Of a DNA stretch of 45,439 nt, positions 10,133 through 35,727 are shown one piece after another. Made by a program: the position numbers and the translations under genes. Each line of letters begins with the position of its first letter. Position 1 is the first letter of the stretch. This stretch comes from a virus (Duplodnaviria > Heunggongvirae > Uroviricota > Caudoviricetes), in IMG/VR virus record IMGVR_UViG_2872678658_000002. The stretch is one strand, 5' to 3'. The notes below the pieces were generated by a model. That model saw nothing but the letters and a program-made list of their open reading frames with translations. It did no database searches and had not been told where the DNA came from.

Positions 10133-10461
10133 CAGTTCACCACCTGTTCAAACTCTGCGCTGAACTCAACACGCAGCATACTGACCCGCGACGACCATTT
10201 TGCGCAGGTCACCTTTATCTGCCTGTAACCATAAGGCGGCGTCCACAGAAAGGCCTTCCAGCCCCCGTGCTCAGCCAGAAACGACTCCAGCGCCGTGGCC
10301 TCCTCACGGGAGACAGACAGCGTCACGCTGTACGTTTTCAGGTCAGCGTTCAGCCCGGCAGGCGCACGCTGGGAATAGCCATCACCAAAGCGCACCTCCC
10401 TGACGGAAGGAGCCGATGTCACATCCATCCCGGGTTTCACTTTCCAGCGGAAGGTTTTCAT
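10132..10461 (-). CDS. M: minor tail protein M
   Basis: 109 aa, lambda M-like, 1-nt overlap with L. Confidence 0.9.
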   Translation of the reverse strand: MKTFRWKVKPGMDVTSAPSVREVRFGDGYSQRAPAGLNADLKTYSVTLSVSREEATALESFLAEHGGWKAFLWTPPYGYRQIKVTCAKWSSRVSMLRVEFSAEFEQVVN

Positions 10462-13019
10462 CGTCCACCTCCGGAGAACAGACCACCATCGCGCATCTGT
10501 GCCTGGATTTCATCACGGGCACCCTTGCGGGCCATGTCATACACCGCCTTCATCATCTGTGGACCTGGCAGACCATTCGTACCGTCGTTCTGAATCACCA
10601 CGTTGTTGTTCTGCTCAAACCTGATACCCTCTGAACGCCGCATTTGCGCCGGACTTCCGGTGCCACCGACATAACCGCCGGTGGCATAGCCGCGCATCAG
10701 CCGGTAGAGATTTCCCACGCCAATCCGGCTGGTTGCCTCCTTCGTGAAGACAAATTCACCACGGTGAACAATCCCCGCTGGCTCATATTTGCCGCCGGTT
10801 CCCGTAAATCCTCCGGTTGCAAAATGGAATTTCGCCGCAGCGGCCTGAATGGCTGTACCGCCTGACGCGGATGCGCCGCCACCAACAGCCCCGCCAATGG
10901 CGCTGCCGATACTCCCGACAATCCCCACCATTGCCTGCTTAAGCAGAATTTCTGTCATCATGGACAGCACGGAACGGGTGAAGCTGCGCCAGTTCTGCTC
11001 ACTGCCGGTCAGCATCGCCGCCATATTCTGTGCAATACCATCAAAGGTCTGCGTGGCTGCACTTTTTACCTGCGACATACTGTCCGTGGCGCTCTCTTCC
11101 CACTCACTCCAGCCGGACTTCAGGCCTGCCATCCAGTTCCCGCGAAGCTGGTCTTCAGCCGCCCAGGTCTTTTTCTGCTCTGACATGACGTTATTCAGCG
11201 CCAGCGGATTATCGCCATACTGTTCCTTCAGGCGCTGTTCCGTGGCTTCCCGTTCTGCCTGCCGGTCAGTCAGCCCCCGGCTTTTCGCATCAATGGCGGC
11301 CCGTTTTGCCCGTTGCTGCTGTGCGAATTTATCCGCCTGCTGCGCCAGCGCGTTCAGGCGCTCCTGATACGTAACCTTGTCGCCAAGTGCAGCCAGCTGG
11401 CGTTTGTACTCCAGCGTCTCATCTTTATGCGCCAGCAGGGATTTCTCCTGTGCAGACAGCTGGCGACGTTGCGCCGCCTCCTCCAGTACCGCGAACTGAC
11501 TCTCCGCCTTCCACAAATCCCGGCGCTGCTGGCTGATTTTCTCATTTGCTCCGGCATGCTTCTCCAGCGTCCGGAGTTCAGCCTGAAGCGTCAGCAGGGC
11601 AGCATGAGCACTGTCTTCCTGACGATCGCCCGCAGACACCTTCACGCCGGACTGTTTCGGCTTTTTCAGCGTCGCTTCATAATCCTTTTTCGCCGCCGCC
11701 ATCAGCGTGTTGTAATCTGCCTGCAGGATTTTCCCGTCTTTCAGTGCCTTGTTCAGTTCTTCCTGACGGGCGGTATATTTCTCCAGCGGTGTCTGCAGCC
11801 GTTCGTAAGCCTTCTGCGCCTCTTCGGTATATTTCAGCCGTGATGCTTCGGTATCGCTCTGCTGCTGCGCATTTTTGTCCTGTTGACTCTGCTGTTCAGC
11901 CTTCTTTCGGGCGGCTTCAAGCGCAAGACGGGCCTTTTCACGATCATCCCAGTAACGCGCCCGCGCTTCATCGTTAACAAAATAATCATCCTTGCGCAGA
12001 TTCCAGATGTCGTCCGCTTTCTTAAACGCAGCCTCTGCCTTAATCAGCATCTCCTGAGCGGTATCAGGACGACCAATATCCAGCACCGCATCCCACATGG
12101 ATTTGAATGCCCGTGCTGTCCTGTCTGCCCAGGTTTCCAGCGTGCCCATGTTCTCTTTCAGGCGTCGGGTCTGGTCATCAAACCCTTTCGTTGCGGCCTC
12201 GTTCGCCGCCTGCAATGCCCCGGATTCATCGCCGGAACGCTGCAACTGAGCAACATACGCAATCTGCTCCGCCGTTACGTTATGGAACTGGCGCGCCATC
12301 GCCGTCAGCCCCGACGTCGGGTCAGTGGTCAGCTTCCCGAAGGCTTCAGCGACCTTGTCCACCTCCACGCCGGATGCAGAGGAGAAACGCGCCACACTCT
12401 GGCTGATGGATGCAATCTGAGCCTCACCGCTTACTCCCGCCTTAACCAGTGCGCTGAGTGACTCGCTGGTCTGGTTAAACGTCAGCCCTGCCGCCTGCCC
12501 GGCTCTGGACAGGACCAGCATACGATCTGCCGTCAGACCCGACTGATTGCCGGAAAGGACCAGCGTTTTGTTGAAATCGGACAGGGTTGAGTTACCCTGA
12601 TACCAGGCATACGCCAGCGCACCGGTCGCCACCGCCAGCGAGGTGGCCCCGACCATCGGCAGGGTGATCGCACCGGCAAGCCCCCGGAACATGGGGATCA
12701 TCCCGCCGAAGGAGTCCTTAACCTGACCACCCTGTTGCAGCAGGATCAGCCACGGGCTTTGCCCGCCTGCAAGCTGCGTGGCCACGTCGGTGAACTGTGC
12801 AGGCAGCATACGCATGGCGGCTTTATACTGCCCGACGGAAATCCCCGCTTTCTGTGCAGCCAGCGCCTGTCGGCTCAGCGACTGTTCAACGACTGCCGCT
12901 GTTTTTTTCGCATCACTTTCCGTACCGGAAAAATGACGCCTGACTCTGGCCATCTGCTCGTCAAATCTGGCCGCATCCAGACTTAAATCAACGACCAGAT
13001 CGCCTACCGGTTCAGCCAT
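10458..13019 (-). CDS. H: tail tape measure protein H
   Basis: 853 aa, coiled-coil-rich, lambda H-like; position between T and M. Confidence 0.9.
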   Translation of the reverse strand: MAEPVGDLVVDLSLDAARFDEQMARVRRHFSGTESDAKKTAAVVEQSLSRQALAAQKAGISVGQYKAAMRMLPAQFTDVATQLAGGQSPWLILLQQGGQVKDSFGGMIPMFRGLAGAITLPMVGATSLAVATGALAYAWYQGNSTLSDFNKTLVLSGNQSGLTADRMLVLSRAGQAAGLTFNQTSESLSALVKAGVSGEAQIASISQSVARFSSASGVEVDKVAEAFGKLTTDPTSGLTAMARQFHNVTAEQIAYVAQLQRSGDESGALQAANEAATKGFDDQTRRLKENMGTLETWADRTARAFKSMWDAVLDIGRPDTAQEMLIKAEAAFKKADDIWNLRKDDYFVNDEARARYWDDREKARLALEAARKKAEQQSQQDKNAQQQSDTEASRLKYTEEAQKAYERLQTPLEKYTARQEELNKALKDGKILQADYNTLMAAAKKDYEATLKKPKQSGVKVSAGDRQEDSAHAALLTLQAELRTLEKHAGANEKISQQRRDLWKAESQFAVLEEAAQRRQLSAQEKSLLAHKDETLEYKRQLAALGDKVTYQERLNALAQQADKFAQQQRAKRAAIDAKSRGLTDRQAEREATEQRLKEQYGDNPLALNNVMSEQKKTWAAEDQLRGNWMAGLKSGWSEWEESATDSMSQVKSAATQTFDGIAQNMAAMLTGSEQNWRSFTRSVLSMMTEILLKQAMVGIVGSIGSAIGGAVGGGASASGGTAIQAAAAKFHFATGGFTGTGGKYEPAGIVHRGEFVFTKEATSRIGVGNLYRLMRGYATGGYVGGTGSPAQMRRSEGIRFEQNNNVVIQNDGTNGLPGPQMMKAVYDMARKGARDEIQAQMRDGGLFSGGGR

Positions 13020-13446
13020 ACCGGACTCCTCCTGCGATCCCTTCTGATACTGTCATCAGCATTACGTCATCCTCCGTCATGCCCGCCATATCCGGGGAAG
13101 CGGGGATAACTTCATTTCCGTCCGGGTCAAAGCGGACGCCTCCGGTAAGCCCTGCCGCTTTCTGCATCAGCACATCATCTTCAGGCTCTTCGTCATCCTC
13201 ACGCCGGTTCAGCAAACTGAAATCCAGCGGATGCATATCCGGATCGCTGAAAAACAGGCTGAGCACAGTGTACGTCAGCCCGGAAAAGTGCATATCCAGC
13301 AGAACATCATGAAAATAATGGGTACTGTAAAAGCGGTGCCAGTCGGCATACTCCGTGGATGACATCCCGGCAAGCATGGCGCGCCAGTCAGGTCGCCCCA
13401 TCTCTCGCGCCAGTTTCAGGGCAAAACTCAGCTCACCGTCGAACAC
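13012..13446 (-). CDS. T: tail assembly chaperone T region, expressed as G-T fusion by -1 frameshift
   Basis: 144-aa -1 frame ORF overlapping the end of G; slippery heptamer present. Confidence 0.85.
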   Translation of the reverse strand: MFDGELSFALKLAREMGRPDWRAMLAGMSSTEYADWHRFYSTHYFHDVLLDMHFSGLTYTVLSLFFSDPDMHPLDFSLLNRREDDEEPEDDVLMQKAAGLTGGVRFDPDGNEVIPASPDMAGMTEDDVMLMTVSEGIAGGVRYG

Positions 13447-13850
13447 TTTCCCGCAGAAACAGGCTCTGCAGGCCCGGAGTCCTCTGCCTGGTCAGGGGCA
13501 TCATTCACCACAAACCCATACATACCGGACAGCCGGTACACCACGTTTTCAGCATGAGAAATTGCCTCCGCGGGCCAGGTGGTAAGCACTTCCTGCTCAA
13601 TCTGTTTAACGGCTTCATTCATGGAAGGCTGCTTTGTCTTCTGCGGATGGTTATGCCACAGGGACATCGCCACCACAAAAGCACCGGTTCTGATGGCGTC
13701 TTCCACAGTAACCTGCCGGTTGCTGTCTGACTCCGCCTGTTCTGCCTGCTGTTTCATCAGGGCGAGATGCTCAATACGCTGCAGGGCTGACAGTTCAGAA
13801 AGCGTGACGGTCACGCCGTTATGTTCAAATGATTCGGTTTTCAGGAACAT
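13428..13850 (-). CDS. G: tail assembly chaperone G
   Basis: 140 aa, lambda G-like. Confidence 0.9.
   Translation of the reverse strand: MFLKTESFEHNGVTVTLSELSALQRIEHLALMKQQAEQAESDSNRQVTVEDAIRTGAFVVAMSLWHNHPQKTKQPSMNEAVKQIEQEVLTTWPAEAISHAENVVYRLSGMYGFVVNDAPDQAEDSGPAEPVSAGKCSTVS
13446..13452 (-). other. G-T programmed -1 ribosomal frameshift slippery site GGGAAAG
   Basis: plus strand reads ctttccc (reverse complement GGGAAAG) 8 codons before the G stop. Confidence 0.85.
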
Positions 13851-13865
13851 CGCTGACTCTCCGGA

Positions 13866-14606
13866 TTAACTGTCGGTGACAGTGATTTCTGCAACCGCAG
13901 CAAGTTCACCATTACCGGATACAACCGGAATGTTGACCTTGCCTGCAGCAACGCCGTTCACTGTGATGGTCATACCACTGACCGACACGGTGGCTTTTGT
14001 TTTATCCGCTGACACCGCACGGAAGCTCTTGTCAGTTGCGCCCTCCGGCTGGAAGGCCACGGTCAGCGTGGTGCTCTGCCCTTTCACCACCGAGGAGCTG
14101 GCAGGCGTCACGGTCATACCGGTTGCCGCCGTCACCGTACTGCGATCTTCTGCCATTGACGGACGGCCCACATTGGTGACCTTCACCGTACGGGTGATCA
14201 CTTCCTTCGCCGTCACCGCCTTACCGATACTGCTGACCCAGCCACGGAACACATCGACCGTGCCGTTCGGGAAGCGGATTTTATAGGCACGGGTATCACC
14301 TTCATTAAACCACGCCAGCAGCGCCTGCTGCCCCTGCTCTCCGGGCATCCACGCCAGCGTGAAGCTGGTATCTCCGGCGGATTTCTGCCCCTGCCCGGTC
14401 GCGGTCCAGTCCGCATCTTCATCATCGAGATAGCTGTCATCATAGGACTCAGCGGTCAGTTCGCCGGGCGTCAGGTCTTTAACTTTTGCCAGACGCGACC
14501 AGTCAACGTCTGAAAGCGGGTTCGCATAAGGGTCGCCGCTCCCGTTATAAACCCACAGGGTGGTTCCGGCACCTTTCACCGGTATTGCTGGATTTGGTAC
14601 AGGCAT
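13866..14606 (-). CDS. V: major tail protein V (with C-terminal Ig-like domain)
   Basis: ORF extends to 14636, but lambda V-like sequence starts [16 protein letters not shown] at the internal Met. Confidence 0.9.
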
Positions 14607-14613
14607 ATCGTCC

Positions 14614-15009
14614 TCACATTTCATAGGTAATGACATACGTCAGATCGGCAGAACTCCACAGGCCCGCATCATCGTCGCGCCGGTAGTCATAGCCGCTGGC
14701 CACCATACTGGTGATCAAATCTGACAGTGCCGGGATATCGCTCATCACCGGATAAATCCGGGACTCCATCCACGAATCCAGCTCTGAATCCGGCACCTGA
14801 GCAGGCAGGAAAACTTCAATATGCAGCTCCGCCTGCCAGGTATCGCTGTCCAGCTCTTCGCCCGTGTATTCAGCGCCGGTGAGATAAACGGCAATTGCCG
14901 GAAAATCTTCCTCATCAAAAACAGCGGGGCGACCATCAAAAAGCGTCGCCCCGGTGTCATGCTTCTCCAGTGCATCCAGTACGGCTGCACGGAGTTCAGT
15001 ATGTTTCAT
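14614..15009 (-). CDS. U: tail terminator protein U
   Basis: 131 aa, [37 protein letters not shown] lambda U-like. Confidence 0.9.
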
Positions 15010-15584
15010 CGCTTTATTACCATTCTCAGTTGATGCTGCAGCGCATAGCCCAGCTCTTTCGGAAGACGCTCACGCCGTATCCGCTCAATATTCTGTTTAA
15101 ACGCCGTGGTCAGCGGCACCGCCATCGGGATTTTCACCACATCAATGGGGTAACGGTTTTTCCCGGCCACACGCTGCATGACATGCCACCGGCCATTTTT
15201 CAGTTGCTGAATAAACGCGCCGGGAATACGACGGTTTCCCACCACAAGCACGCTGCCGCCACCTTTCAGGGATGAACGCTGCCCCTTTTTACGACGCCTG
15301 CGGCGGGACAGGACAACCCGCGCATTACCCAGCTTGATTACGGGCAAATCCCCCCGGTTAACCCTGATTCTGGCCTGCGGATTTTTGACCGTGGCCCTTT
15401 TCAGCCTGGCCCTTTCCTTTACCAGTTTCCGGCGTACCTTTGTCTCACGGGCAACCTGTGACGCAGACTGCGATATCGCGGATGAAGCAACGCGGTTAAT
15501 GGCCATTGCGGCGGCACCGGGCACCGCCGTTTTGCTGATACGGCTGAGGTTTTCAACGGCCTGCTCAAGACCTTTTATGGCCAT
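15006..15584 (-). CDS. Z: tail completion protein Z
   Basis: 192 aa lambda Z-like, 4-nt overlap with U. Confidence 0.9.
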   Translation of the reverse strand: MAIKGLEQAVENLSRISKTAVPGAAAMAINRVASSAISQSASQVARETKVRRKLVKERARLKRATVKNPQARIRVNRGDLPVIKLGNARVVLSRRRRRKKGQRSSLKGGGSVLVVGNRRIPGAFIQQLKNGRWHVMQRVAGKNRYPIDVVKIPMAVPLTTAFKQNIERIRRERLPKELGYALQHQLRMVIKR

Positions 15585-15595
15585 ACATCCCCCTT

Positions 15596-15949
15596 TCAGC
15601 GGCGACGGTTAACGGCAGGCGGTACGCCCCGCCCAAGCCAGAGATGACAGCTTCCGCCATCATCCGGCGAAATCCGGTCTATCCAGAAGTTTTCCTCACC
15701 GATGGTCAGCGTGTCGCCGCGCCGCAGCTGCCGCACATCATCAGTCCGGACAAACAGGGACGGGCTGGAGCCTTCAACGCGTACGCCCTGTCCGGCATAG
15801 CTGATATTTTCAGGGTCATCAAAAACACCACGTATTACTGCGCCGGACTGCTCACCGGATGTCATGGTGGCTGACGTTCCCATGTACCCGCGTATCGTTT
15901 CATCGGCGCGGGCAATGGCAGCATCGAACAGGTTATCGAAATCAGCCAC
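15596..15949 (-). CDS. FII: head-tail connector protein FII
   Basis: 117 aa lambda FII-like. Confidence 0.9.
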   Translation of the reverse strand: MADFDNLFDAAIARADETIRGYMGTSATMTSGEQSGAVIRGVFDDPENISYAGQGVRVEGSSPSLFVRTDDVRQLRRGDTLTIGEENFWIDRISPDDGGSCHLWLGRGVPPAVNRRR

Positions 15950-15960
15950 AGCGCCTCCCG

Positions 15961-16356
15961 TTATTGCATTCTGGCCAGGCCACGTTCTGTCATTTCGGCT
16001 GCCACACCGGCAGAGACACGAAACGCCGTTCCCGGCAGCACAAATGCCACAGGTTCATCCCGCGTGGCGTGAAGTGCATCGGTATGCAGCGTCACCAGTG
16101 CCACAACCGTGACCAGAGCAGCCGTATCAGTCACGGTATCCGTCTGTGCTGATACCACCTCATTTTCATGTCCGGTCAGCGCATTTTCCGGGCTGACAGA
16201 CGAGTCCTGACCGGCTCCGTCATCCGTGTCATCAAGCTCCTCTTCCAGCTCTGCCACACGGAGCGCCAGTTCTTCTTTCGTCCCCGTCAGGCTGACATCA
16301 CGGTTCAGTTGCTCACCCAGCTCCTGAAGACGGGCAATCAGTTCATCTTTCGTCAT
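15961..16356 (-). CDS. FI: DNA packaging protein FI
   Basis: lambda FI-like sequence begins MTKDELIARLQELGEQLNRD at internal Met of ORF 15961-16395. Confidence 0.85.
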   Translation of the reverse strand: MTKDELIARLQELGEQLNRDVSLTGTKEELALRVAELEEELDDTDDGAGQDSSVSPENALTGHENEVVSAQTDTVTDTAALVTVVALVTLHTDALHATRDEPVAFVLPGTAFRVSAGVAAEMTERGLARMQ

Positions 16357-16397
16357 GGACTCCTCCACAGAGAGAAAATGGCCCCTAAGGGCCATGA

Positions 16398-17423
16398 TTA
16401 CGCCAGTTGAACGGACACGAACTCATCAGGGTCAGCCAGCAGCATCAGCGGTGCTGACTGAATCATGGTGAACTCACGCGCCGGATCGCCGGTGGTCACC
16501 CAGTTTTTCGGGTAACGGGCAGAGGCGTTAATGCCTTCGCGCTGTGCGTCCGCATCCTGAATGCAGCCATAGGTGCGCAGACCGCGAGCCTGAGTGTTCC
16601 CCAGCACCATCGTGTTGTCCGGCAGGAAGTTCTTTTTGACGCCGTTTTCCACGTACTGTCCGGAATACACGACGATGGCCACATCGCCATACATTCCCTT
16701 ATAGGACACCGCTTTGCCCAGGTCTTTTACCGCTGTCTCCAGCTCGGAATGAGAGCCGCGACGGGTATCCAGCTTCTCCTTGACGGCTTTGAAGGAACGG
16801 AACAGCGCCCAGCCTTTCGGATCAAACACGATGATATTCACCACACCGCTGGCGTTCAGCGCGTAGGCTTCGATATCGTCGGTCGGGTCATACGTGGACT
16901 TGTCACGCTTGCTCCACTCCGTGCCGCCGGACTGCGTGATGTTATTCGCCTCACTGCGGCCCATATCCACCTCAACCGGATCGAAGGCTTCACCGGTCAT
17001 GGTATATTTGCCCTTAAGCACGGCAGAAACTGCCTGCATCTCTTCGACCTGGGCAATCGCCAGATTTTCATCCAGCATATTCTGCCGAATAATACGGCGA
17101 CGACGGTAAGCCGGGTCAGCCAGGTTCTGCGGATCTTCATCCGGCAGGCGACGCAGGGTCATCTGCGGATTCACCTCATGCTTGGGTTTGACATAACCCG
17201 GCGTAAATTCAGAGGTGGAGCCGCCACGGGATCGGATAACCTCACCGGAAACAATCGGCGAAACGTACAGCGCCATGTTTACCAGTCCCGGAATTTGTGA
17301 GAGATAGACTTTTTCCGTGGTGAAAGGATAGGTTTCACGGAAAAACAGGCGCAGAAACAGCGGATCGAACTTAAAGTGATGCTGGGTCGATGCCAGTAAT
17401 TCTGCAGTTGTATATACAGACAT
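16398..17423 (-). CDS. E: major capsid protein E
   Basis: 341 aa, MSVYTTAELLAS...FKFDPLFLRLFFRE lambda E-like. Confidence 0.95.
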   Translation of the reverse strand: MSVYTTAELLASTQHHFKFDPLFLRLFFRETYPFTTEKVYLSQIPGLVNMALYVSPIVSGEVIRSRGGSTSEFTPGYVKPKHEVNPQMTLRRLPDEDPQNLADPAYRRRRIIRQNMLDENLAIAQVEEMQAVSAVLKGKYTMTGEAFDPVEVDMGRSEANNITQSGGTEWSKRDKSTYDPTDDIEAYALNASGVVNIIVFDPKGWALFRSFKAVKEKLDTRRGSHSELETAVKDLGKAVSYKGMYGDVAIVVYSGQYVENGVKKNFLPDNTMVLGNTQARGLRTYGCIQDADAQREGINASARYPKNWVTTGDPAREFTMIQSAPLMLLADPDEFVSVQLA

Positions 17424-17478
17424 AAATTATTTCCATAAAAAAAGCCGCACAGGCGGCCTTTGTTGATGAAGGGGAAGA

Positions 17479-17811
17479 TTAAACGATGCTGATTGCCGTT
17501 CCGGCAAACGCGGTCCGTTTTTTCGTCTCGTCGCTGGCAGCCTCCGGCCAGAGCACATCCTCATAACGAAACGAGCCGGACTTGTAGAACGTCAGTGTGG
17601 TGCTGGTCTGGTCAGCAGCAACCGCCAGAATGCCAACGGCTGCACCGTCGGTGGTGCCATCCCACACAACCAGCTTACGGGTAGTGCCATCCAGCATCAG
17701 CGGGGTCATTGCAGGCGTTTTCGCACTCAATCCGCCAGGCGCAATTGCTGTATGAGCCGGATCACTGTTACCCAGCGGCTGGTAATGGTTAAACTCTTCT
17801 TTTGTCGCCAT
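17479..17811 (-). CDS. D: head decoration protein D
   Basis: 110 aa lambda D-like. Confidence 0.9.
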
Positions 17812-17820
17812 AACTGCCTC

Positions 17821-19132
17821 TTATACCGGTAAAGCTTCAGGTGTATTAAGTAATTCTTTATTGGTATCAGATGCCAGGTTACCTGCAGCCAGCGGTGCCG
17901 GTGTACCCTGCATCAGACGATCCAGCGCAGTGTCACTGCGCGCCTGTGCACTCTGTGGTGCTGCAGCCAGAATGCGGCGGGCCGTTTCCACGGTCATTCC
18001 GGGGGTTTCTGCCAGAACGCGCGCCTGTTCTTCGCGTCCGTGAGCCTCCTCACAGTTGAGGATCCCCATAATGCGGCTGTTTTCTGCCGCAACCGCAGCG
18101 GTGATCTGCGCGTTCACGTCCGGCTGCGCCGCGCTGGCGTTTTCGCCCTCCGTCGCTGGCACCACGTCAGTAACGTCAGCCTGCGAAGCAGTGGCTGAAA
18201 CAGTTGTTGATTGAGTCTCTTTGGTCATTCGCCCTCCTGAGAGACGGGATTTACGTGCATCCAGTGCATCACGCATAACGGTGATCGCATCGGTGCTGTT
18301 GACAAGTTCATCAGCCAGTCCGGCATCAATGGCCTCCTGACCGCTGTACACTGCAGCCTCGGTATCCAGCACAGCCTGCACGGACAGGCCGGTATATGCC
18401 GACACCTTCTGCGCAAACATCTGGCGGGTTGCATCCATCCGGGACTGCAGTGTCTCCCGGACGTCATCCGGAAGATGGCTGTAGGGGTTGCCATCCACCT
18501 TATGGCTGCCGCTGTAAATCAGCGTGATTTCCACGCCCTGTTTCTCCAGTGCAGCGCCGTAATTACTGTGAGCCATCATGACGCCGATGGAGCCTGTCCG
18601 GGCGGTCTGCGTGACCAGACGCCGGGAGGCGGCACTGGCAAGCAGCTGACCTGCGCTGCAGTTCATGTCATTGGCTAGCGCCCATACCGGCTTTATGTCA
18701 CGCACACGGGCGATGATGTCAGCGCAGTCAAATGCTCCCGCCACCATTCCGCCCGGTGTGTCCATATCGAGCAGAATGCCGTCCACCATCGGGTCGCTGG
18801 CAGCCTGTTGCAGACGGGCGATAATGCCGTTGTAACCGGTCATCCCCGAATACGGCTGCAGCGCCCGCGTCCGGCTGACCAGCGTGCCGGAAACCGGCAG
18901 CACGGCGATGCCGTTCATGACCTGATAACTGCGGGCCTGTCGTGGTCCGTCATCATCACCGGATAACGCCAGCGTCGCGGGTGCCTCCGGGGCAGTCAGG
19001 CTGTCACCGGACACCGCATCTGTCAGGCGGCTGATCCCAAGCTGGCCTGCAAGCGCACAAAAGAAAACCCGCGCATAGGCGGGTTCAAGCATCAGCGGCT
19101 CATTAAAGGCCATGCTGGCAATATGCGGGAGA

Positions 19133-19152
<20 letters not shown>
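17821..19152 (-). CDS. C: capsid assembly protease C, with in-frame nested scaffold Nu3 in its 3-prime third
   Basis: lambda C-like sequence starts at GTG (VTAELRNLPHIASMAFNEP) preceded by AGGAGGAG Shine-Dalgarno; ORF track extends further upstream into B. Confidence 0.85.
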
Positions 19153-22833
<3,681 letters not shown>

Positions 22834-22859
<26 letters not shown>

Positions 22860-23379
22860 TCAGCAACCCCGGTATCAGTTCATCCAGCGCGGCTGCTTTG
22901 TTCATGGCTTTGATGATATCCCGTTTCAGGAAATCAACATGTCGGTTTTCCAGTTCCGGAAAACGCCGCTGCACCGACAGGGGGATCCCGTCGAGAATAC
23001 TGGCAATTTCACCTGCGATCCGCGACAGCACGAAAGTACAGAATGCGGTTTCCACCACTTCAGCGGAGTCTCTGGCATTTTTCAGCTCCTGTGCGTCGGC
23101 CTGCGCACGCGTAAGTCGATGGCGTTCGTACTCAATAGTCCCTGGCTGGAGATCTGTCTCGCTGGCCTGGCGCAGTTCTTCAACCTCCCGGCGCAGCTTT
23201 TCGTTCTCAATTTCAGCATCCCTTTCGGCATACCATTTTATAACGGCGGCAGAGTCATAAAGCACCTCATTACCCTTGCCACCGCCTCGCAGAACGGGCA
23301 TTCCCTGTTCCTGCCAGTTCTGAATGGTACGGATACTCGCACCGAAAATGTCAGCCAGCTGCTTTTTGTTGACTTCCAT
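22834..23379 (-). CDS. Nu1: terminase small subunit Nu1
   Basis: 181 aa MEVNKKQLADIFGASIRTIQNWQEQGMPVL lambda Nu1-like. Confidence 0.95.
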
Positions 23380-23556
23380 TGTTCATTCCACGGCCAAAAA
23401 CAGAGAAAGGAAACGACAAAGGCCCAAAAGTTCGTTTTCAGCACCTGTCGTTTCCTTTCTTTTCAGGGGGTATTTTAAATAAAAACATTAAGTTACGACG
23501 AAGAAGAACGGAAACGCCTTAAACCGGAAAATTTTCATAAATAGCGAAAACCCGCG
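23380..23556 (-). promoter_or_regulatory. cosB-like terminase binding region between cosN and Nu1
   Basis: reverse complement matches remembered lambda left-end sequence (GGGCGGCGACCTCGCGGGTTTTCGCTATTTATGAAAATTTTCCGG...). Confidence 0.7.
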
Positions 23557-23568
23557 AGGTCGCCGCCC
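23557..23568. other. cosN cohesive-end site (12-nt, reverse complement GGGCGGCGACCT)
   Basis: aggtcgccgccc seen at 23557-23568 directly upstream of Nu1 on the phage strand. Confidence 0.85.
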
Positions 23569-23767
23569 CGTAACCTGTCGGATCGCCGGAAAGGACCCGC
23601 AAAATGATAATAATTATCATCTGCATGTCACAACGTGCATCTACGCCATCAAACCACGTCAAATAATCAATTATGACGCAGGTATCGTATTAATTGATCT
23701 GCATCAACTTAACGTAAAAACAACTTCAGACAATACAAATCATCGACACTGAATACAGGGCAACCTC

Positions 23768-24001
23768 ATGTCAACGAAGAACAGAACCCGCAGAACAACA
23801 ACCCGCAACATCCGCTTTCCTAACCAAATGATTGAACAAATTAACATCGCTCTTGTTCAAAAAGGGTCCGGGAATTTCTCAGCCTGGGTCATTGAAGCCT
23901 GCCGCCGGAGACTGTGCTCAGAAAAAAGAGTTTCGCCTGAAGCAAACAAAGAAAAGAGTGACATTACTGAATTGCTCAGAAAACAGGTCAGACCAGATTG
24001 A
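23768..24001 (+). CDS. small ribbon-helix-helix-like protein
   Basis: 77-aa ORF; N-terminal beta-strand/helix pattern (RNIRFPNQMIEQINIALVQKGSGNFSAWVIEACRRRL) resembles CopG/Arc-type RHH fold. Confidence 0.5.
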   Translation: MSTKNRTRRTTTRNIRFPNQMIEQINIALVQKGSGNFSAWVIEACRRRLCSEKRVSPEANKEKSDITELLRKQVRPD

Positions 24002-24058
24002 AGCAATTTAGATAATCGTGCAGACTACGCCCCCTCATATCACATGGAAGGTACTACA

Positions 24059-24469
24059 ATGGCTCAGGTTGCCATTTTTAAACAAATATTCGATAAAGTG
24101 CGAAATAATTTAAACTATCACTGGTTTTATTCTGAACTAAAACGTCACAATGTCTCACATTACATTTACTATTTAGCCACAGAGAATATTCATCTTGTTC
24201 TTGAAAACGATAATACGGTTTTAATAAAAGGACAGGGTAAGGTTGTAAATGTAAGATTTTCAAAAAATAAATGCCTTATAGAAGCCACCTTAAAAGGATT
24301 CAAATCAGGAGAGTTATCATTTTACGAATACAGGAAAAATCTTGCTACAGCAGGGGTTTTCAGATGGATTACAAATATCCACGAAAACAAAAGGTATTAC
24401 TATACCTTTGATAATTCATTACTCTTTACTGAGAACATTCAGAACACTACACAAATATTTCCGCACTAA
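24059..24469 (+). CDS. DUF1398-family protein (YbcV-like)
   Basis: start set at ATG 24059 preceded by GGAAGG; AT-rich; sequence recalled as resembling DLP12 YbcV/lambda right-arm ORF. Confidence 0.5.
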
Positions 24470-25057
24470 ATCATAACGTCCGGTTTCTTCCGTGCCAGAA
24501 CCGGACTCGCTGGCATGATGAAATATGTGTACCCGGTAACCCCGGTGTGCATCGTTTTTGATTATTCCCGCACACTCGCGCAGAAGGAGTTCCCCGTCGG
24601 GCTACGGTCTCTGTTAATACGGGAATACGGCGACGATACAGCGCATGATGTGTCAGGCTTGAATACCTTTATCCTTTAAAAGGGATATCAGTTAAGTTAT
24701 CCCGTGTAGGGTATAAGCCATTATCAAAGCCACTCTGTAGGGAATGGCTTTTGTGATGGCATCACTTACTCTTTACGCTGCTATCCCACTCATCCCGGAA
24801 TTTTGATGGGTTATTGAAACCTTCTGCTGACATAACAACTCCTTCAATGTTTGGCTGAAATTAGGATGTCTTTCCATCAGTCCGCCACCACAAAGAATCT
24901 TTTTTGCCATAAGGCAGGAGGTTCATCTTTCAGTGGCTGCCGGTGTTATTTCCCCACTTACTGGCTTGGGTTGTTTCGTGGTACTGCCGTTAACTGGTGG
25001 CCCAGAATAAATTCCGGTTTCATTATCAAGCCCACCCGTAAATGGGCTTTGTAATGG

Positions 25058-25333
25058 CTACTTCACTTTTGCTTTTGCTTTTGCTTTTGCTTCCGCTCGC
25101 TTACGCCGGCGCTCTTCTTTCCTCTCGGCTTTTGCCATGTCCATGAATGCCTGCATGATCGAGTTCCGCATCATGTAGCTAACAAAGTGATGATTGACAC
25201 AGCCGTTGAGGCGCAGCTGCTCGCCAAACTCATCCACCGAGGCCAATGCTTCCATCATGCCCTTCTCGCCTTTCATGAACTCTGAGAAGTCGCGCCCCGC
25301 TCTGGAGGCGCATTCAATAACACGATCACTCAT
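25058..25333 (-). CDS. hypothetical protein with C-terminal (AK)n repeat, coupled to KilA-N protein
   Basis: 91-aa ORF overlapping upstream gene by 4 nt; C-terminus encoded by tandem CTTTTG hexamers. Confidence 0.5.
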   Translation of the reverse strand: MSDRVIECASRAGRDFSEFMKGEKGMMEALASVDEFGEQLRLNGCVNHHFVSYMMRNSIMQAFMDMAKAERKEERRRKRAEAKAKAKAKVK

Positions 25334-25827
25334 CCCGGAAGCCCGGGGATCGTAATCTGCAGCTGGTTAGCCAGGGAGTTAATCTCAGCGACCAACACTG
25401 GCTTCGTATAGCGCCATGCTGCCAGCCCTTGTCCGCAGAAGCTCGCCATGTCTTTCTTCTGGTCAAACTCATGACATTTCATGTTGAGCTGCGCACTTAA
25501 GCTGTTGCGATGCTGAAGTTCTCCGGTGAAGTAGTCATCGAGGACTTTATAGGCCGCGTACTTGAACCCGGGGTTTAACCAAGCCGCATAATCGTAAGCA
25601 ACAAACTTCCCGCCATATGTTCCACCGTGTACACCGCGCTCAGTAAAAACCACAGATTCGTGGTTTTTCTCCAGCTCGGCTAAGAACTCTTTGGTCTGCT
25701 TGTTTCGCAGGTAGTGGTAAGGCGATTCAGATTCACTTTTACCACTGGCTTTCCACATATCAGTGAGGCAGATCATGCCATCTTCACCGATACGAATTGG
25801 TTGATTGAAGAGGGTTAATGATTTCAT
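25330..25827 (-). CDS. KilA-N domain protein
   Basis: 165 aa; N-terminal region (IRIGEDGMICLTDMWKASGKS...YLRNKQTKEFLAEL) fits the KilA-N pattern. Confidence 0.55.
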   Translation of the reverse strand: MKSLTLFNQPIRIGEDGMICLTDMWKASGKSESESPYHYLRNKQTKEFLAELEKNHESVVFTERGVHGGTYGGKFVAYDYAAWLNPGFKYAAYKVLDDYFTGELQHRNSLSAQLNMKCHEFDQKKDMASFCGQGLAAWRYTKPVLVAEINSLANQLQITIPGLPG

Positions 25828-25942
25828 AGCGTGTACCTACTCTTTGAAATGAACCTTTGCCGCACAGGAAACCAGCCCACCGAGGCTCGCCAGCACTAAC
25901 TGGTATCCTCAAAGGCCCATTCCAAAGGGGCAGGTTCGGTGT

Positions 25943-25967
25943 AAAAAACATGCGTTGCGGTACGCAT
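25943..25967 (-). terminator. candidate rho-independent terminator downstream of Rz/Rz1
   Basis: minus strand stem atgcgt-loop-acgcat followed by U-run (plus-strand A6 at 25943-25948). Confidence 0.4.
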
Positions 25968-26028
25968 TTATTGCAAAAAGCCCCGCATCGCGAGGCTCAT
26001 TAAATGGACTTTGTGATTTGCAAAAAAA

Positions 26029-26502
26029 TTATTTCAGGCATTGCGTCCTGATGTATTCCTGCAGGTAGTTAACCTGCGCGGTTATCTTGTCGATTCCACT
26101 TCGGAGACGGTAATAATTGAGTTCAGCATCTGCTGTAAGTCTTGGGCTTTCTCCATCGCCCATGCTGCTGGCTCCGGTCGTTGACTTTGCACAGGTGGCG
26201 GCGACTTGCAGGCGCTTACGACCAGCAGAAACATCAGCACGGAGACTTTCGATAGTCGCATTAGCATCAGCAAGCTCCTTTGTGTATCTGGCGTCGAGTT
26301 CTGCTACATCACGTTGACGCTTCCGCATGTCAGCGATGGTGGCGTTCGCCTTCTCCAGTTCACTGGCCTTGTTATCGCGCTGCTCTTTGTAGGCGATTGC
26401 GTTATCACGGTAATGATTAACAGCCCATGACAGGCAGACGATGATGCAGATAACCAGAGCATAAATAATCGCGGCGACTCTGCTCACTGATCTATCCCCC
26501 AA
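26029..26502 (-). CDS. Rz: spanin inner-membrane subunit Rz
   Basis: 157 aa, N-terminal TM then coiled coil, lambda/21 Rz-like. Confidence 0.85.
26082..26273 (-). CDS. Rz1: spanin outer-membrane lipoprotein Rz1 (embedded in Rz, +1 frame)
   Basis: 63-aa ORF wholly inside Rz; lipobox (VVSAC) and Pro-rich stretch. Confidence 0.75.
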
Positions 26503-33537: not shown

Positions 33538-33816
33538 TTACCTCCAGATCCGTTGCTGGTATGTGCGGGATGGGCGCGGTGGGCGTTCGGAATAAGGGAG
33601 CCTGACATAGATTATCCAGTGACGATAATCGAGGCTGAGGGCTTTCTTAATCTCGTATCCGCGTCTGCGATAGTTATGAATTAGCCATTCGGCCTGTTCT
33701 TCAGTACATGGGTCATGCTGGAACCAGTCAGATTTGAAAGTGCGGGAACGCCGCCCGTGCCTGCTGGCAAAGACGGCAGAATCATCAGAATTGTGTAATT
33801 TGGTATCGTGCGCCAT
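33538..33816 (-). CDS. hypothetical small basic protein (Rem position)
   Basis: 93 aa from internal Met of ORF 33538-33897. Confidence 0.35.
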   Translation of the reverse strand: MAHDTKLHNSDDSAVFASRHGRRSRTFKSDWFQHDPCTEEQAEWLIHNYRRRGYEIKKALSLDYRHWIIYVRLPYSERPPRPSRTYQQRIWR

Positions 33817-34112
33817 CGGTTGTCTCTGCTGGCGCAGCAGGTGCCAGTTGTTCAGGCTGGCGTGCGAATTGTAAACCAGAATGCCAGGAAAAAACAAAAC
33901 CCGCCGAAGCGGGTATGCTAAAACAAACTGAAAGTAATATACCGGACTTGTAAAGGAACGATAGAATAATTATTGGATTAAACCCTGACTCAATCCAGAT
34001 TTCATAGGCAACAACTACGGACTAATCATCACAGTCATGTTTGATAGGCTTAGTCCACATTGGGTGAGGGTTTACGGCGTTTTCACTAATAATTTATCGT
34101 CCAAGCTATACA

Positions 34113-34505
34113 CTACTGCCCTGTTTTAACGAAGTTTTTAAAGGAAACAACTGCCTGATAGGGGTTTGGTTGACAGCCAAACATATTATCGCAAAAAGGC
34201 TTGATGAAAATTCTTGAGGATCCATCTTCATTTGGCATTTTACTCACTTGATAAGCGAGGAATGGACTATTTGGAGAGGGATTATAAGTGGAAATTAGCG
34301 TGTCTGTCGCCGTTTGAATTTTCCATGAGGAATTATTAGCCAACCAGAATTGCGCTCGTTTCCAATAAAAGTCACATTGCTTTTCATCATTACATGTTAG
34401 TGGCTTCATTGCTTCTGCTTTCAACGCTGGATCGATCTTTGCTGCACACCCTCCCAACATTACTGTTGCAATCATTACACCTGCGACTAAAACAAGTTTC
34501 TTCAT
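34113..34505 (-). CDS. predicted lipoprotein (moron)
   Basis: 130 aa, signal peptide with lipobox LGGC, six further Cys; AT-rich codon usage. Confidence 0.6.
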   Translation of the reverse strand: MKKLVLVAGVMIATVMLGGCAAKIDPALKAEAMKPLTCNDEKQCDFYWKRAQFWLANNSSWKIQTATDTLISTYNPSPNSPFLAYQVSKMPNEDGSSRIFIKPFCDNMFGCQPNPYQAVVSFKNFVKTGQ

Positions 34506-34648
34506 CTCCCTGCCCCATCAATAAAAGTTCGGTTCTCTAATAACTAGAGTTAATCAACGGAAAAAACGCCGAAGCGGGTTAAGTGCGGGTGCGTTGAGGA
34601 TGCCTGACACATCAGAGGTGGCGAGGGATTTCTCCCCCGCCAGGTCTC

Positions 34649-34804
34649 TTACTCCTCAGGTTCGTAAGCTGTGAAGACAGCGACCTCCGTCTGGCCGGTT
34701 CGGATTCGTACCTCGCAGAGGTCTTTCCTCGTTACCAGTGCCGTCACAATGACGGTTAAACAGATGACGATCAGGGCGATTAACATCGCCTTTTGCTGCT
34801 TCAT
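34649..34804 (-). CDS. hok: Hok/Gef-family membrane toxin (HokD-like)
   Basis: 51 aa MKQQKAMLIALIVICLTVIVTALVTRKDLCEVRIRTGQTEVAVFTAYEPEE; ORF has in-frame upstream extension to 34861. Confidence 0.85.
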   Translation of the reverse strand: MKQQKAMLIALIVICLTVIVTALVTRKDLCEVRIRTGQTEVAVFTAYEPEE

Positions 34805-35040
34805 AGCCTGCTTCTCCTTGCCTTTCGGCACGTAAGAGGCTAACCTAGATTTGCCGTTCATAGATTGAGCCTCAGATTAATGTTAAGCGTCTTGCAGGAC
34901 GCGTAATGTTAACTGGGGCTTTTCTCTATCTGCCTTTGGTGTTCATGCCTGAGACAGATAGCCTCAAGCACCCGCAGCCATTCTACTTAACTCCCGTTAC
35001 CTCGCCAATATAAAATCAATCAGAAAGGTGATCCATAAAA

Positions 35041-35727
35041 TCACTCCTTCTCTTCTTTTCCGTAGTGGAGTTGGCCAATTTTGATAAGAGGGCGTCCCTG
35101 AGATTTGCGGTGTAGATTGGTATCGCGCAGAGAATACACACAGCCACAATATTCCTGCTGATAGAATTTTTCGCGCTTGCTGATTTCAATCATACGGGAC
35201 GAGCCGCCCTGCTTGCGCCAGTTATAATCCCAGTACACCATACCCGGATAATGCGCAACAGCTCGCCGCCCACACTCGTTAACCTGCTGCATATTTTTCC
35301 AGCGTGAAATGCCCAGTGAACTGCTGATCACACTGAAACCATTTTCAGCAGCGTACAACGCTGTCCGCTCAAAACGCATGTCAAAACACATGGTACAACG
35401 GATCCCCCTCTCAGGCTCCCATTCCATTCCTTTGGCACGTTCAAACCAGTTGTCGGTGTCGTAATCAGCATCGATAAACGGCACGCCGTGTTGTTCAGCA
35501 AAGCGAATATTTTCATCCTTACGAATTAAATACTCTTTCTGAGGATGAATGTTCGGGTTGTAGAAAAAGATGGTGTAGTCGATTCCCGAGGCCTGAAGCG
35601 CCTCCATCACTTCACCGGAACATGGAGCACAGCAAGAGTGCAGTAGTAGTTTGTTTGCCCCGTTTGGGAGCTCCAATTTAGGCCGTTTGAAATCAGCAAT
35701 AGTCATAAATATTTTTATTGGGGTCAT
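35041..35727 (-). CDS. DUF208/QueH-like protein (putative epoxyqueuosine reductase, Fe-S)
   Basis: 228 aa with [11 protein letters not shown] motif plus CTMCF and YCGC cysteines characteristic of QueH family. Confidence 0.65.

What the first reader, a model, noticed from the sequence alone, without database searches (positions are those of the whole stretch)
34113..34505. AT-rich predicted lipoprotein moron in the nin-like region
It has a clear lipobox signal peptide, six additional cysteines and low-GC codon usage, embedded among phage early genes. This profile is seen in prophage-encoded superinfection-exclusion or envelope-modifying lipoproteins.
Basis: inference. Interest (0 to 1): 0.4.

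Follow-up and report, generated by a model that had tools for sequence, protein, structure and literature searches.

The report
Prophage moron encoding uncharacterised periplasmic lipoprotein
A small, AT-rich gene for an outer-membrane-anchored lipoprotein has been dropped as a 665-base cassette next to the hokD toxin gene of an E. coli prophage. It belongs to a large, unnamed protein family that travels on prophages and tiny plasmids and probably protects the cell envelope, though its function has never been tested.

Summary
The ORF is real: window 34113..34505, minus strand, 130 aa. It has a canonical lipobox (LGGC, Cys20), Ala at +2, and GC 0.40 against 0.52 for the window. It has four further cysteines, not six.

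It lies in a precise 665-bp insertion between hokD and a rem-like gene. A 13-nt direct repeat taken from the hok terminator bounds the insertion. The reconstructed empty site exists at 100% identity in other E. coli. 254 of 5426 complete E. coli genomes carry the cassette.

Close homologues (66-84% identity) sit at five or more other junctions in prophages of Enterobacter, Pantoea and Phytobacter, mostly inside the tail-tip operon. They have their own extended -10 promoter and terminator, and dN/dS is 0.04-0.11. These are the marks of a moron.

A profile search finds 1134 cluster representatives with four near-invariant cysteines. None matches Pfam, NCBIfam or PADLOC. Variants occur on 2.5-4 kb ColE1-type plasmids and as LysM or PDZ fusions. 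The AlphaFold model (pLDDT 94.5) is a helix-grip fold nearest to Flpp3/DUF3568 and the N-terminal domain of BamC. It does not resemble Cor, Llp, Rtp45 or Bor.

Function is inferred only: most likely a periplasmic envelope-protection or superinfection-exclusion factor. Moron and lipoprotein are supported; exclusion is untested.

The parts
34113..34505 (-). Lipoprotein CDS of 130 aa, identical or near-identical to RefSeq WP_000737636.1/WP_000737634.1 'hypothetical protein'. The mature part is 110 aa after Cys20, about 12.5 kDa, pI 8.7.
   Evidence: ORF. Annotation. phrog_16082 matches at E 2.9e-84. dN/dS is 0.04-0.11. AlphaFold2 pLDDT is 94.5.
34446..34505 (-). Signal peptide and lipobox (codons 1-20: MKKLVLVAGVMIATVMLGG|C). 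Residues +2 and +3 are Ala-Ala, which predicts Lol-dependent sorting to the outer membrane.
   Evidence: PS51257-type pattern match. 146 of 177 family sequences have such a lipobox, and +2 is never Asp. The sorting rule comes from established E. coli knowledge and was not tested here.
34506..34566 (-). 5' leader of the cassette, with a G-rich Shine-Dalgarno (GGGGCAGGGAG) directly before the ATG. It aligns with the conserved TGnTAGGAT extended -10 of relatives, but reads AGTTATTAG here, so the promoter looks degenerate.
   Evidence: Alignments of upstream regions. The promoter scan finds no sigma-70-like site here.
34567..34579 (.). hokD-proximal copy of the 13-nt direct repeat CGCCGAAGCGGGT. 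On the minus strand it reads ACCCGCTTCGGCG followed by TTTTTT. The terminator stem is truncated and no longer folds.
   Evidence: Fold is -4.5 kcal/mol with no hairpin, no better than shuffles.
33915..34112 (-). AT-rich 3' untranslated part of the cassette, 198 nt. A 16-nt inverted repeat lies at 33979-33994 / 34059-34074. Some E. coli alleles carry a shorter version.
   Evidence: The fold is not exceptional (z -0.96).
33889..33914 (-). Intact intrinsic terminator (ACCCGCTTCGGCGGGT + TTTGTTTTTT). It contains the second copy of the direct repeat (33902-33914). It is the first good terminator downstream of hokD on this strand.
   Evidence: Terminator scan. Fold is -13.1 kcal/mol, z -3.8.
33915..34579 (.). 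The 665-bp insertion relative to the empty hokD|rem site. An equivalent placement is 33902-34566.
   Evidence: The reconstructed empty site is found as a single 271-nt piece at 100% identity in NZ_CP097367.1 (H43). About 2,488 genomes carry it at >=80% coverage. Alignment.
34649..34804 (-). hokD toxin gene (type I toxin-antitoxin system) immediately upstream on the same strand. The sok/leader RNA match is at 34799-34973.
   Evidence: Pfam HOK_GEF at E 3e-23. Rfam sok scores 110 bits. RefSeq annotation.
33538..33816 (-). rem-like gene (279 nt) immediately downstream. It marks the other side of the insertion site.
   Evidence: RefSeq annotation mapped from L001. phrog_1212.

Best explanation
The feature is a moron, a self-contained cargo cassette that is not needed for phage growth.

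Shown:
- It encodes a small lipoprotein whose precursor carries a type II signal peptide.
- The cassette is a 665-bp insertion at the hok terminator hairpin. It duplicates 13 nt of that hairpin.
- In this E. coli version the hokD-proximal hairpin copy is broken and the cassette's ancestral extended -10 is degenerate.

Inferred steps of the mechanism:
- Its 110-residue domain has a helix-grip fold and probably two DsbA-made disulfides (four conserved Cys). A tether of only about 5 residues holds it against the periplasmic face of the outer membrane.
- The gene is probably transcribed in the lysogen as a hokD-lipoprotein read-through RNA that ends at the intact distal hairpin.

Most likely function (inferred, not shown):
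- A single-protein envelope-protection factor that binds a conserved host envelope component at the outer membrane/peptidoglycan interface.
- This would block entry of superinfecting phages and stop progeny being wasted on cell debris.
- That would make it functionally analogous to Llp, Cor and Rtp45, but it belongs to an unrelated and larger protein family.
For: Anatomy (shown):
- ORF, lipobox and composition.
- Exact empty site at 100% identity, and the 13-nt direct repeat.
- Intact distal terminator versus broken proximal copy.
- The cassette sits at the same place in all 56 E. coli IMG/VR loci and in 254 of 5426 genomes.

Mobility and selection (shown):
- Homologues of 66-84% identity lie between H|M, M|L, K|I and I|J of lambda-like tail operons, and next to ant/gpJ.
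- More distant members lie between TAC|TMP, in a nin/lysis region, between lysis genes and terminase, next to int, and next to an IS.
- A TGnTAGGAT extended -10 is conserved in five of the eight non-E. coli upstream regions, and an intrinsic terminator follows the gene in six of eight, despite unrelated flanks.
- dN/dS is 0.04-0.11.

Stand-alone cargo (shown):
- A 41%-identical member is the main cargo of 2.5-4 kb ColRNAI plasmids.

Periplasmic location (supported):
- The lipid anchor is replaced by a Sec signal plus LysM in Acinetobacter plasmids, and a C-terminal PDZ is added in others.
- Four Cys are near-invariant.

Expression by analogy:
- In prophage Tritos of LF82, a different cargo occupies the same hokD|rem site and is likewise bounded by two hairpin copies.
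- That cargo is expressed 14-30x above prophage background in the lysogen. hokD is at 3792x and the rem-like gene is at background (PMC9928086).

Exclusion analogy:
- Llp and Rtp45 are periplasm-facing outer-membrane lipoproteins that block their receptors from inside (PMC12685063).
- Repeated placement of close relatives beside gpJ parallels cor and llp, which sit next to receptor-binding genes. This last point rests on my own knowledge.
Against: - There is no experimental datum for any family member. No paper mentions the two accessions searched.
- No sequence or structural similarity to any known exclusion lipoprotein, and no PADLOC hit.
- In the window the gene is about 25 kb from gpJ, so it is not linked to a receptor-binding module.
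- LysM-anchored variants fit a periplasmic inhibitor at least as well as a receptor blocker.
- Very strong sequence conservation is not what an arms-race protein usually shows.
- No sigma-70 promoter is detectable in the E. coli cassette, so lysogenic expression is inferred and not shown.
- Only 2 of 50,697 sequenced phage records carry the gene.
Confidence: 0.4

Rival explanations
1. It is a periplasmic inhibitor or immunity protein. The domain would bind and neutralise an incoming cell-wall-degrading enzyme, such as a phage tail-associated or endolysin-type hydrolase, a T6SS amidase or muramidase effector, a bacteriocin such as colicin M or pesticin, or host lysozyme. Known inhibitors such as MliC/PliC, Ivy and Tai/Tsi work this way. 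The protein would be tethered near peptidoglycan by a lipid or by LysM.
For: - LysM fusion with a plain Sec signal in Acinetobacter plasmids, and PDZ fusions in others.
- It is a single-gene cargo on tiny plasmids and prophages, as orphan immunity genes are.
- It is a disulfide-bonded small periplasmic domain.
- Close relatives sit beside gpK, an NlpC/P60 + JAB protein, in tail operons.
- High conservation suits a conserved enzyme target.
Against: - No adjacent toxin gene was seen in any context examined.
- Adjacency to gpK may only reflect insertion-tolerant junctions in the tail operon.
Confidence: 0.22
2. It is a host-fitness or virulence lipoprotein in the manner of lambda Bor/Iss (serum resistance) or an envelope-stress factor. 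It would benefit the lysogen in an animal host rather than against phages.
For: - The best E. coli matches include avian-pathogenic, urinary and enteroaggregative strains such as APEC IMT5155, MSHS 133 and strain 042.
- Bor is also a prophage-encoded outer-membrane lipoprotein expressed from the prophage (PMC9928086).
Against: - There is no Lambda_Bor or other Pfam match.
- Family members occur in plant-associated Pantoea, Phytobacter, a fungal endosymbiont (Mycetohabitans), Shewanella, Variovorax and groundwater metagenome-assembled genomes. The selective benefit is therefore not specific to animal hosts.
- Pathotype enrichment was not measured.
Confidence: 0.13
3. It is a hitch-hiking or decaying gene with no current function in this prophage. 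It would persist only because it is linked to the hok/sok addiction module.
For: - The promoter element conserved in relatives is degenerate in the E. coli cassette.
- Truncated or frameshifted copies exist: P0006, P0012, P0013 and P0015.
- Many of the carrier prophages are partly defective.
Against: - The ORF is intact and 95-100% identical across 56 viral loci and 254 genomes.
- The wider family is under strong purifying selection.
- The broken upstream hairpin creates a plausible read-through route from the very highly expressed hok RNA.
Confidence: 0.07

Closest known systems
Superinfection-exclusion lipoproteins Llp (T5), Cor (phi80/N15/T1/HK022) and Rtp45 (Rtp)
   Same: - Phage-encoded, with a type II signal peptide and predicted outer-membrane inner-leaflet location with a short tether.
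- Single-gene action.
- Close relatives of the window protein sit beside the tail-tip/receptor-binding gene gpJ, as cor and llp sit beside receptor-binding genes.
- Llp and Rtp45 are shown to bind their receptors (FhuA, LptDE) from the periplasmic side (PMC12685063).
   Different: - No sequence homology. The weak phrog_1119 Cor hit covers only the signal peptide.
- The mature protein is about 110 aa with a helix-grip fold and four Cys, against about 60 aa for the known ones.
- In the window the gene lies in the nin region, far from gpJ.
- No receptor is known and no exclusion has been tested.
Flpp3 / DUF3568 (Francisella lipoprotein) and the N-terminal domain of BamC
   Same: - They share an alpha+beta helix-grip of two helices packed on a four-stranded antiparallel sheet.
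- Both are lipoproteins of Gram-negative bacteria.
   Different: - Identity is only 12-13%.
- There is no Pfam DUF3568 or BamC hit for the query or for 75 family members.
- KA1 and TBP-like domains score equally well, so this is fold-level resemblance with no functional implication.
- The four-Cys pattern is specific to this family.
Classical lambdoid morons (lambda bor and lom; HK97 gp15)
   Same: - Extra gene between conserved neighbours, with deviant base composition and its own terminator.
- Relatives have their own promoter.
- Present or absent among otherwise colinear prophages.
- HK97 gp15 is a moron in the tail-gene region that excludes superinfecting phage (PMC3594210; details of gp15 are from my own knowledge).
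   Different: - No homology to Bor, Lom or gp15.
- The E. coli copy seems to have lost its own promoter and may depend on hokD read-through.
- The same family is also plasmid cargo.
Membrane-bound and periplasmic enzyme inhibitors (MliC/PliC, Ivy, T6SS immunity lipoproteins)
   Same: - Small periplasmic proteins stabilised by disulfides.
- They occur in both lipid-anchored and soluble or otherwise anchored versions.
- They are mobile as single genes.
   Different: - No sequence or fold match was found.
- No cognate toxin or enzyme has been identified.

Membership tests
Bacterial lipoprotein (type II signal peptide, PROSITE PS51257 rule) | Positively charged n-region, uncharged h-region, lipobox [LIVMFWSTAG]2-[LIVMFYSTAGCQ]-[AGS]-C with the Cys at position 15-35 | tested here: met
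   MKK / LVLVAGVMIATVM / LGG-C20 matches the pattern. Cys20 is invariant in 75 aligned members.
Bacterial lipoprotein (type II signal peptide, PROSITE PS51257 rule) | Actual lipidation and cleavage by Lgt/LspA, and outer-membrane localisation | not testable with these tools
   Ala at +2 predicts Lol export (with the established +2 rule). Confirmation needs globomycin or palmitate labelling and fractionation.
Moron (Hendrix/Juhala sense) | Present in some and absent from other, otherwise colinear, phage genomes, with precise boundaries | tested here: met
   The empty site is 271/271 identical in NZ_CP097367.1. About 2,488 genomes carry the uninterrupted site against 254 with the cassette.
Moron (Hendrix/Juhala sense) | Base composition different from the surrounding genome | tested here: met
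   GC is 0.40 (GC3 0.37) against 0.52. Flanking genes have GC3 of 0.44-0.68.
Moron (Hendrix/Juhala sense) | Own promoter and own factor-independent terminator | tested here: inconclusive
   A terminator is present at 33889-33914. No sigma-70-like promoter was found in the window's leader. Relatives keep a TGnTAGGAT extended -10 and a terminator.
Moron (Hendrix/Juhala sense) | Expressed from the repressed prophage | not testable with these tools
   Only an analogy is available. A different cargo at the same site in LF82 Tritos is expressed 14-30x above background (PMC9928086).
Cor / Llp / Rtp45 superinfection-exclusion lipoproteins | Sequence homology to the family | tested here: not met
   phrog_1119 (Cor) matches at E 0.0088 over residues 1-43 only, which is the signal peptide. 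There is no Pfam or NCBIfam hit, and nothing in PDB by sequence.
Cor / Llp / Rtp45 superinfection-exclusion lipoproteins | Gene adjacent to the receptor-binding protein gene | tested here: not met
   In the window the gene lies between hokD and rem, and gpJ is roughly 25 kb away. In Pantoea and Enterobacter relatives the gene is adjacent to gpJ or inside the tail-tip operon.
Cor / Llp / Rtp45 superinfection-exclusion lipoproteins | Blocks adsorption or DNA entry through a defined outer-membrane receptor | not testable with these tools
   This needs plating-efficiency and adsorption assays.
Lambda Bor / Iss | Match to Pfam Lambda_Bor | tested here: not met
   No Pfam hit at E<=0.1 for the query, and none at E<=0.01 for 75 members.
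DUF3568 (Flpp3-like) | Match to the Pfam family, and a Bet v1-like helix-grip fold | tested here: inconclusive
   [not shown]
Known anti-phage defence systems (PADLOC-DB v2) | Match to any PADLOC model | tested here: not met
   No hits for the ORF or for four neighbouring genes.

The most novel reading that the evidence does not exclude
The ORF would be the first-noticed member of a large, unnamed family: at least 1,134 clusters at 50% identity across Proteobacteria, with no Pfam or NCBIfam model. The family would be periplasmic four-cysteine helix-grip proteins that act as stand-alone mobile envelope-immunity modules. Members move as hairpin-bounded cassettes among at least nine different prophage junctions and onto 2.5-kb plasmids. 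They would block phage entry, or neutralise an incoming cell-wall hydrolase, by a mechanism unrelated to Llp/Cor/Rtp45. On this reading the hok terminator hairpin would also be a recurrent cargo-exchange site in lambdoid prophages.
Probability: 0.3. Interest if true: 0.65.

Novelty: new member of a known kind. Interest (0 to 1): 0.4.

Why it matters
If the family is a phage-exclusion or envelope-immunity factor, it would add a widespread single-gene defence class that current defence finders miss. It has no PADLOC hit and no Pfam model. It would also help explain phage-resistance phenotypes linked to prophages and cryptic small plasmids in Enterobacterales and Acinetobacter.

The high-confidence structure model and the existence of an inducible carrier phage (vB_EcoS-689R5) make the idea cheap to test.

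The anatomy is informative in its own right. Three different cargos occupy the same hokD|rem junction. Two of them are bounded by copies of the hok terminator hairpin, which points to a recombination hot spot for moron exchange.

If no phenotype is found, this is simply one more conserved hypothetical prophage lipoprotein.

Tried and rejected
Searches that found nothing:
- Pfam, NCBIfam and PADLOC scans of the ORF found no family. A Pfam scan of 75 family members also found none.
- A profile search of PDB sequences gave nothing below E 0.3.
- Foldseek against the BFVD viral structures gave no match at E<=1e-3.
- tblastn against 50,697 phage records found only the two induced E. coli prophages.
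- Literature searches for WP_000737636 and WP_032201349 returned no papers.

Searches that failed for technical reasons:
- The afdb50 fold library was unavailable.
- The search for related loci in genome contigs failed with the broad alignment because no stretch was conserved enough. It found no confirmed relative with the close alignment. A third sub-alignment gave six loci.
- Single distant proteins P0026 and P0019 gave nothing in IMG/VR.

Leads rejected:
- The PHROG Cor hit covers only the signal peptide.
- The Pfam C4 procollagen and NCBIfam LsoB hits (E about 0.07-0.1) are far below their cut-offs.
- The 'mobile element protein' annotated at window 33808..33921 in phage records is a short ORF that spans the rem-like gene's start and the terminator hairpin.
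- An RNA element in the 198-nt 3' region is not supported: fold z is -0.96 and Rfam has no hit.
- A tail-type difference between vB_EcoS-689R5 and vB_EcoM-606R7 does not exist. 606R7 carries lambda-like tail genes H, M, K and I, and the part of 689R5 examined has the same early and lysis layout.

Not possible with these tools:
- Disulfide connectivity could not be read, because model coordinates are not exposed.

Full report
**1. Observation**

Window 34113..34505 on the minus strand holds a 130-aa ORF starting with ATG. The sequence is MKKLVLVAGVMIATVMLGGCAAKIDPALKAEAMKPLTCNDEKQCDFYWKRAQFWLANNSSWKIQTATDTLISTYNPSPNSPFLAYQVSKMPNEDGSSRIFIKPFCDNMFGCQPNPYQAVVSFKNFVKTGQ.

The N-terminus satisfies the PROSITE-type lipobox rule, with Cys20 as the lipidated residue and Ala at +2. 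There are five cysteines (20, 38, 44, 105, 111).

GC is 0.399 and GC3 is 0.366. The window is 0.518, and neighbouring genes have GC3 of 0.44-0.68.

The surroundings, all on the minus strand, form a lambdoid early-right region. The order is an O-like replication gene, DUF977, QueH, hokD with sok (Pfam HOK_GEF 3e-23, Rfam sok 110 bits), the ORF, a rem-like gene, DUF968/YdfU, RusA and Q.

RefSeq calls the protein 'hypothetical' (WP_000737636.1 in E. coli 042, WP_000737634.1 in MSHS 133).

**2. The ORF sits in a precise insertion**

A 13-nt exact direct repeat, CGCCGAAGCGGGT, lies at 33902-33914 and 34567-34579, 665 nt apart. It is part of the hok terminator hairpin.

I joined the two flanks across one repeat copy and searched with the result. 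This reconstructed empty site occurs as one uninterrupted 271-nt piece at 100% identity in NZ_CP097367.1. About 2,488 genomes carry it at >=80% coverage. The full cassette occurs in 254 of 5,426 genomes.

In 56 E. coli-type viral contigs from IMG/VR, the cassette is flanked by rem-like sequence downstream in all 56 and by hokD sequence upstream in 55. The remaining contig begins too close to the gene to show it.

On the coding strand, the copy of the hairpin nearest hokD has lost half its stem and no longer folds (-4.5 kcal/mol, no better than shuffles). The distal copy is an intact terminator (-13.1 kcal/mol, z -3.8, followed by a U tract). The first good terminator after hokD therefore lies after the lipoprotein gene.

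**3. The site is a hot spot**

NZ_OZ038535.1 carries an unrelated AT-rich insert of about 300 bp at the same junction.

Prophage Tritos of E. coli LF82 carries a third cargo there: two genes, LF82_281 and LF82_280. It too is bounded by two copies of the hairpin.

Published RNA-seq of the LF82 lysogen shows hokD at 3,792-fold above prophage background. The two cargo genes are at 14-30-fold, and the following rem-like gene is at background (PMC9928086). This shows that cargo at this position can be expressed in the lysogenic state. It is not direct evidence for the lipoprotein.

**4. The gene moves among prophages**

The word-indexed search found only close relatives, at 66-84% identity, in Enterobacter, Pantoea and Phytobacter. 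Their positions are:

| Position | Loci |
|---|---|
| Between tape measure H and gpM | L004, L093 |
| Between gpM and gpL | L091 |
| Between gpK and gpI | L092 |
| Between gpI and gpJ | L008 |
| Downstream of ant (L012) or other unrelated genes (L075), just upstream of gpI/gpJ, followed by a second unrelated lipoprotein gene | L012, L075 |
| Beside a gpM remnant | L009 |

More distant members lie in these positions:

| Position | Locus |
|---|---|
| Between the tail chaperone and the tape measure | L083 |
| Between RusA and a methylase/endolysin block | L085, Plesiomonas |
| Between the lysis genes and terminase, on the opposite strand | L094 |
| Next to int/AlpA | L015 |
| Next to an IS | L013 |

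Five of the eight non-E. coli upstream regions share a TGnTAGGAT extended -10 about 35-45 nt before the start codon, although their flanks are unrelated. Six of the eight have an intrinsic terminator 40-70 nt after the stop codon.

The E. coli cassette reads AGTTATTAG at the aligned position. The promoter scan finds nothing there.

Pairwise dN/dS is 0.04-0.11, with synonymous sites saturated.

These are the defining marks of a moron. The one exception is that an independent promoter is not demonstrable in the window copy.

**5. The wider family**

A profile of the close relatives retrieved 1,134 representatives of 50%-identity clusters at E<=1e-3, and 504 at E<=1e-10. They are mostly 125-135 aa long.

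- In an alignment of 75 members, the lipobox Cys and three of the further four Cys are invariant. The fourth is present in more than 90%.
- Of 177 sequences, 146 have a PS51257-type lipobox, and +2 is never Asp.
- 125 of those 146 have exactly four further Cys.
- No member matches any Pfam family.
- The query has no NCBIfam or PADLOC match.
- It belongs to phrog_16082 and more distantly to phrog_4186. Both are of unknown function.

A 41%-identical member (WP_032201349.1) is the main cargo of 2.5-4 kb ColRNAI plasmids of Citrobacter and Salmonella. It also occurs on an 8.6-kb Enterobacter plasmid.

In Acinetobacter plasmids of about 110 kb, the lipid anchor is replaced by a plain signal peptide plus a LysM domain. 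Members of about 230 aa carry a C-terminal PDZ domain, and one of these sits in a prophage.

Only 2 of 50,697 sequenced phage records carry the gene. Both are induced E. coli prophages.

**6. Structure**

With the 75-sequence alignment, AlphaFold2 gives pLDDT 94.5 and pTM 0.82. The model has these elements in order:

- signal helix
- a tether of about 5 residues
- a short helix (26-32)
- a strand (36-38)
- a long helix (41-58)
- four antiparallel strands
- a C-terminal helix (115-128)

No known exclusion lipoprotein, lysozyme inhibitor or immunity protein appears among the top 60 matches. BFVD gives nothing significant.

**7. Mechanism**

Shown: the anatomy, the mobility, the purifying selection and the family features described above.

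Inferred from established rules:
- Lgt/LspA/Lnt processing at Cys20.
- Lol transport to the outer membrane, because +2 is Ala.
- DsbA-dependent disulfides.
- A compact domain held against the periplasmic face of the outer membrane.

Inferred from anatomy: co-transcription with hokD through the broken hairpin, ending at the intact one.

Functional inference: the gene works alone, since it is plasmid and prophage cargo in many hosts. It acts in the periplasm, as shown by lipid or LysM anchoring and by the PDZ additions. Its very low dN/dS suggests that it recognises something conserved.

The best-fitting known logic is that of Llp and Rtp45. These are periplasm-facing lipoproteins that disable a phage receptor from inside (PMC12685063). 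The repeated placement of relatives next to gpJ supports this.

I give the exclusion reading about 0.4. The periplasmic enzyme-inhibitor or immunity reading gets about 0.2, a Bor-like fitness factor about 0.13, and no function about 0.07.

**8. Comparison and novelty**

It works like a classical lambdoid moron and possibly like an exclusion lipoprotein. It is not a member of the Cor, Llp, Rtp45, Bor or DUF3568 families by any test run here. It is a new, uncharacterised member of the known kind 'prophage moron lipoprotein'.

The family is large and unnamed, which is the main point of interest. So is the hairpin-bounded cargo exchange at the hok terminator.

**9. Verdict**

Moron and lipoprotein are supported. 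Exclusion is plausible but untested. Interest is moderate, at 0.4.

Noticed in passing
window 33889-33914 and 34567-34579; L099 (E. coli LF82) about 530-600 and 2455-2485; L018 about 700-1080: The hokD|rem junction is a recurrent cargo site. Three unrelated inserts occupy it: the lipoprotein cassette, the LF82_281/LF82_280 pair, and a roughly 300-bp AT-rich insert. The last contains a 28-aa hydrophobic ORF, MENNKSAHYAPFLSVILFVLCCVWALFL. The first two inserts are each bounded by two copies of the hok terminator hairpin, which suggests recombination at the hairpin.
   Followed up: partly
window 34552-34586 (minus strand): In every cassette-bearing prophage the canonical hokD terminator hairpin is truncated. 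The hok mRNA is therefore predicted to be extended by about 665 nt. This could change the 3'-end processing that normally activates hok translation.
   Followed up: partly
window 35041-35727 (minus strand): A QueH epoxyqueuosine reductase gene (Pfam 1.1e-65) lies in the prophage early region, between DUF977 and hokD. It looks like another probable cargo or auxiliary metabolic gene. E. coli 042 and AGR6128 carry different genes at that position.
   Followed up: no
L012 6374-6721; L075 8374-8784: In Pantoea-type prophages the lipoprotein gene is followed, with about 10 nt of overlap, by a second unrelated lipoprotein gene (115 or 136 aa, lipobox MVGC or LSGC, no Pfam match). This is a possible two-lipoprotein operon just upstream of gpI/gpJ.
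   Followed up: partly
L098 5776-6345 (Acinetobacter baumannii plasmid NZ_CP046537.1); P0172 and P0177: The family domain occurs in fusions. One form has a Sec signal plus LysM at the N-terminus, found in 126 Acinetobacter plasmid records. Another has a C-terminal PDZ domain in proteins of about 230 aa.
   Followed up: partly
L095 (NZ_CP141253.1, 2,519 bp) and L096 (NZ_CP091549.1, 3,988 bp): Tiny ColRNAI plasmids of Citrobacter and Salmonella carry a family member (WP_032201349.1). A convergent 69-aa ORF of unknown function is almost their only other cargo.
   Followed up: partly
L034 about 6589-7926: One IMG/VR prophage has about 1.3 kb of extra DNA between hokD and the cassette. It is probably an IS element.
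   Followed up: no
L014 (GCA_963205115.1 contig, 10 kb): A distant family member (P0175) sits in an odd array of repeated 35-aa and 220-aa ORFs together with an Adhesin_E-like gene. It could be a cassette array of small envelope proteins.
   Followed up: no
window 33808-33921 (plus strand): Phage records annotate a 37-aa 'mobile element protein' here. It spans the start of the rem-like gene and the terminator hairpin, and looks like a spurious call.
   Followed up: yes
window about 10136-26208: The head and packaging module of the window prophage has no megablast match to the otherwise similar MSHS 133 prophage. The cassette therefore travels with the early-right module, independently of the structural genes.
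   Followed up: partly
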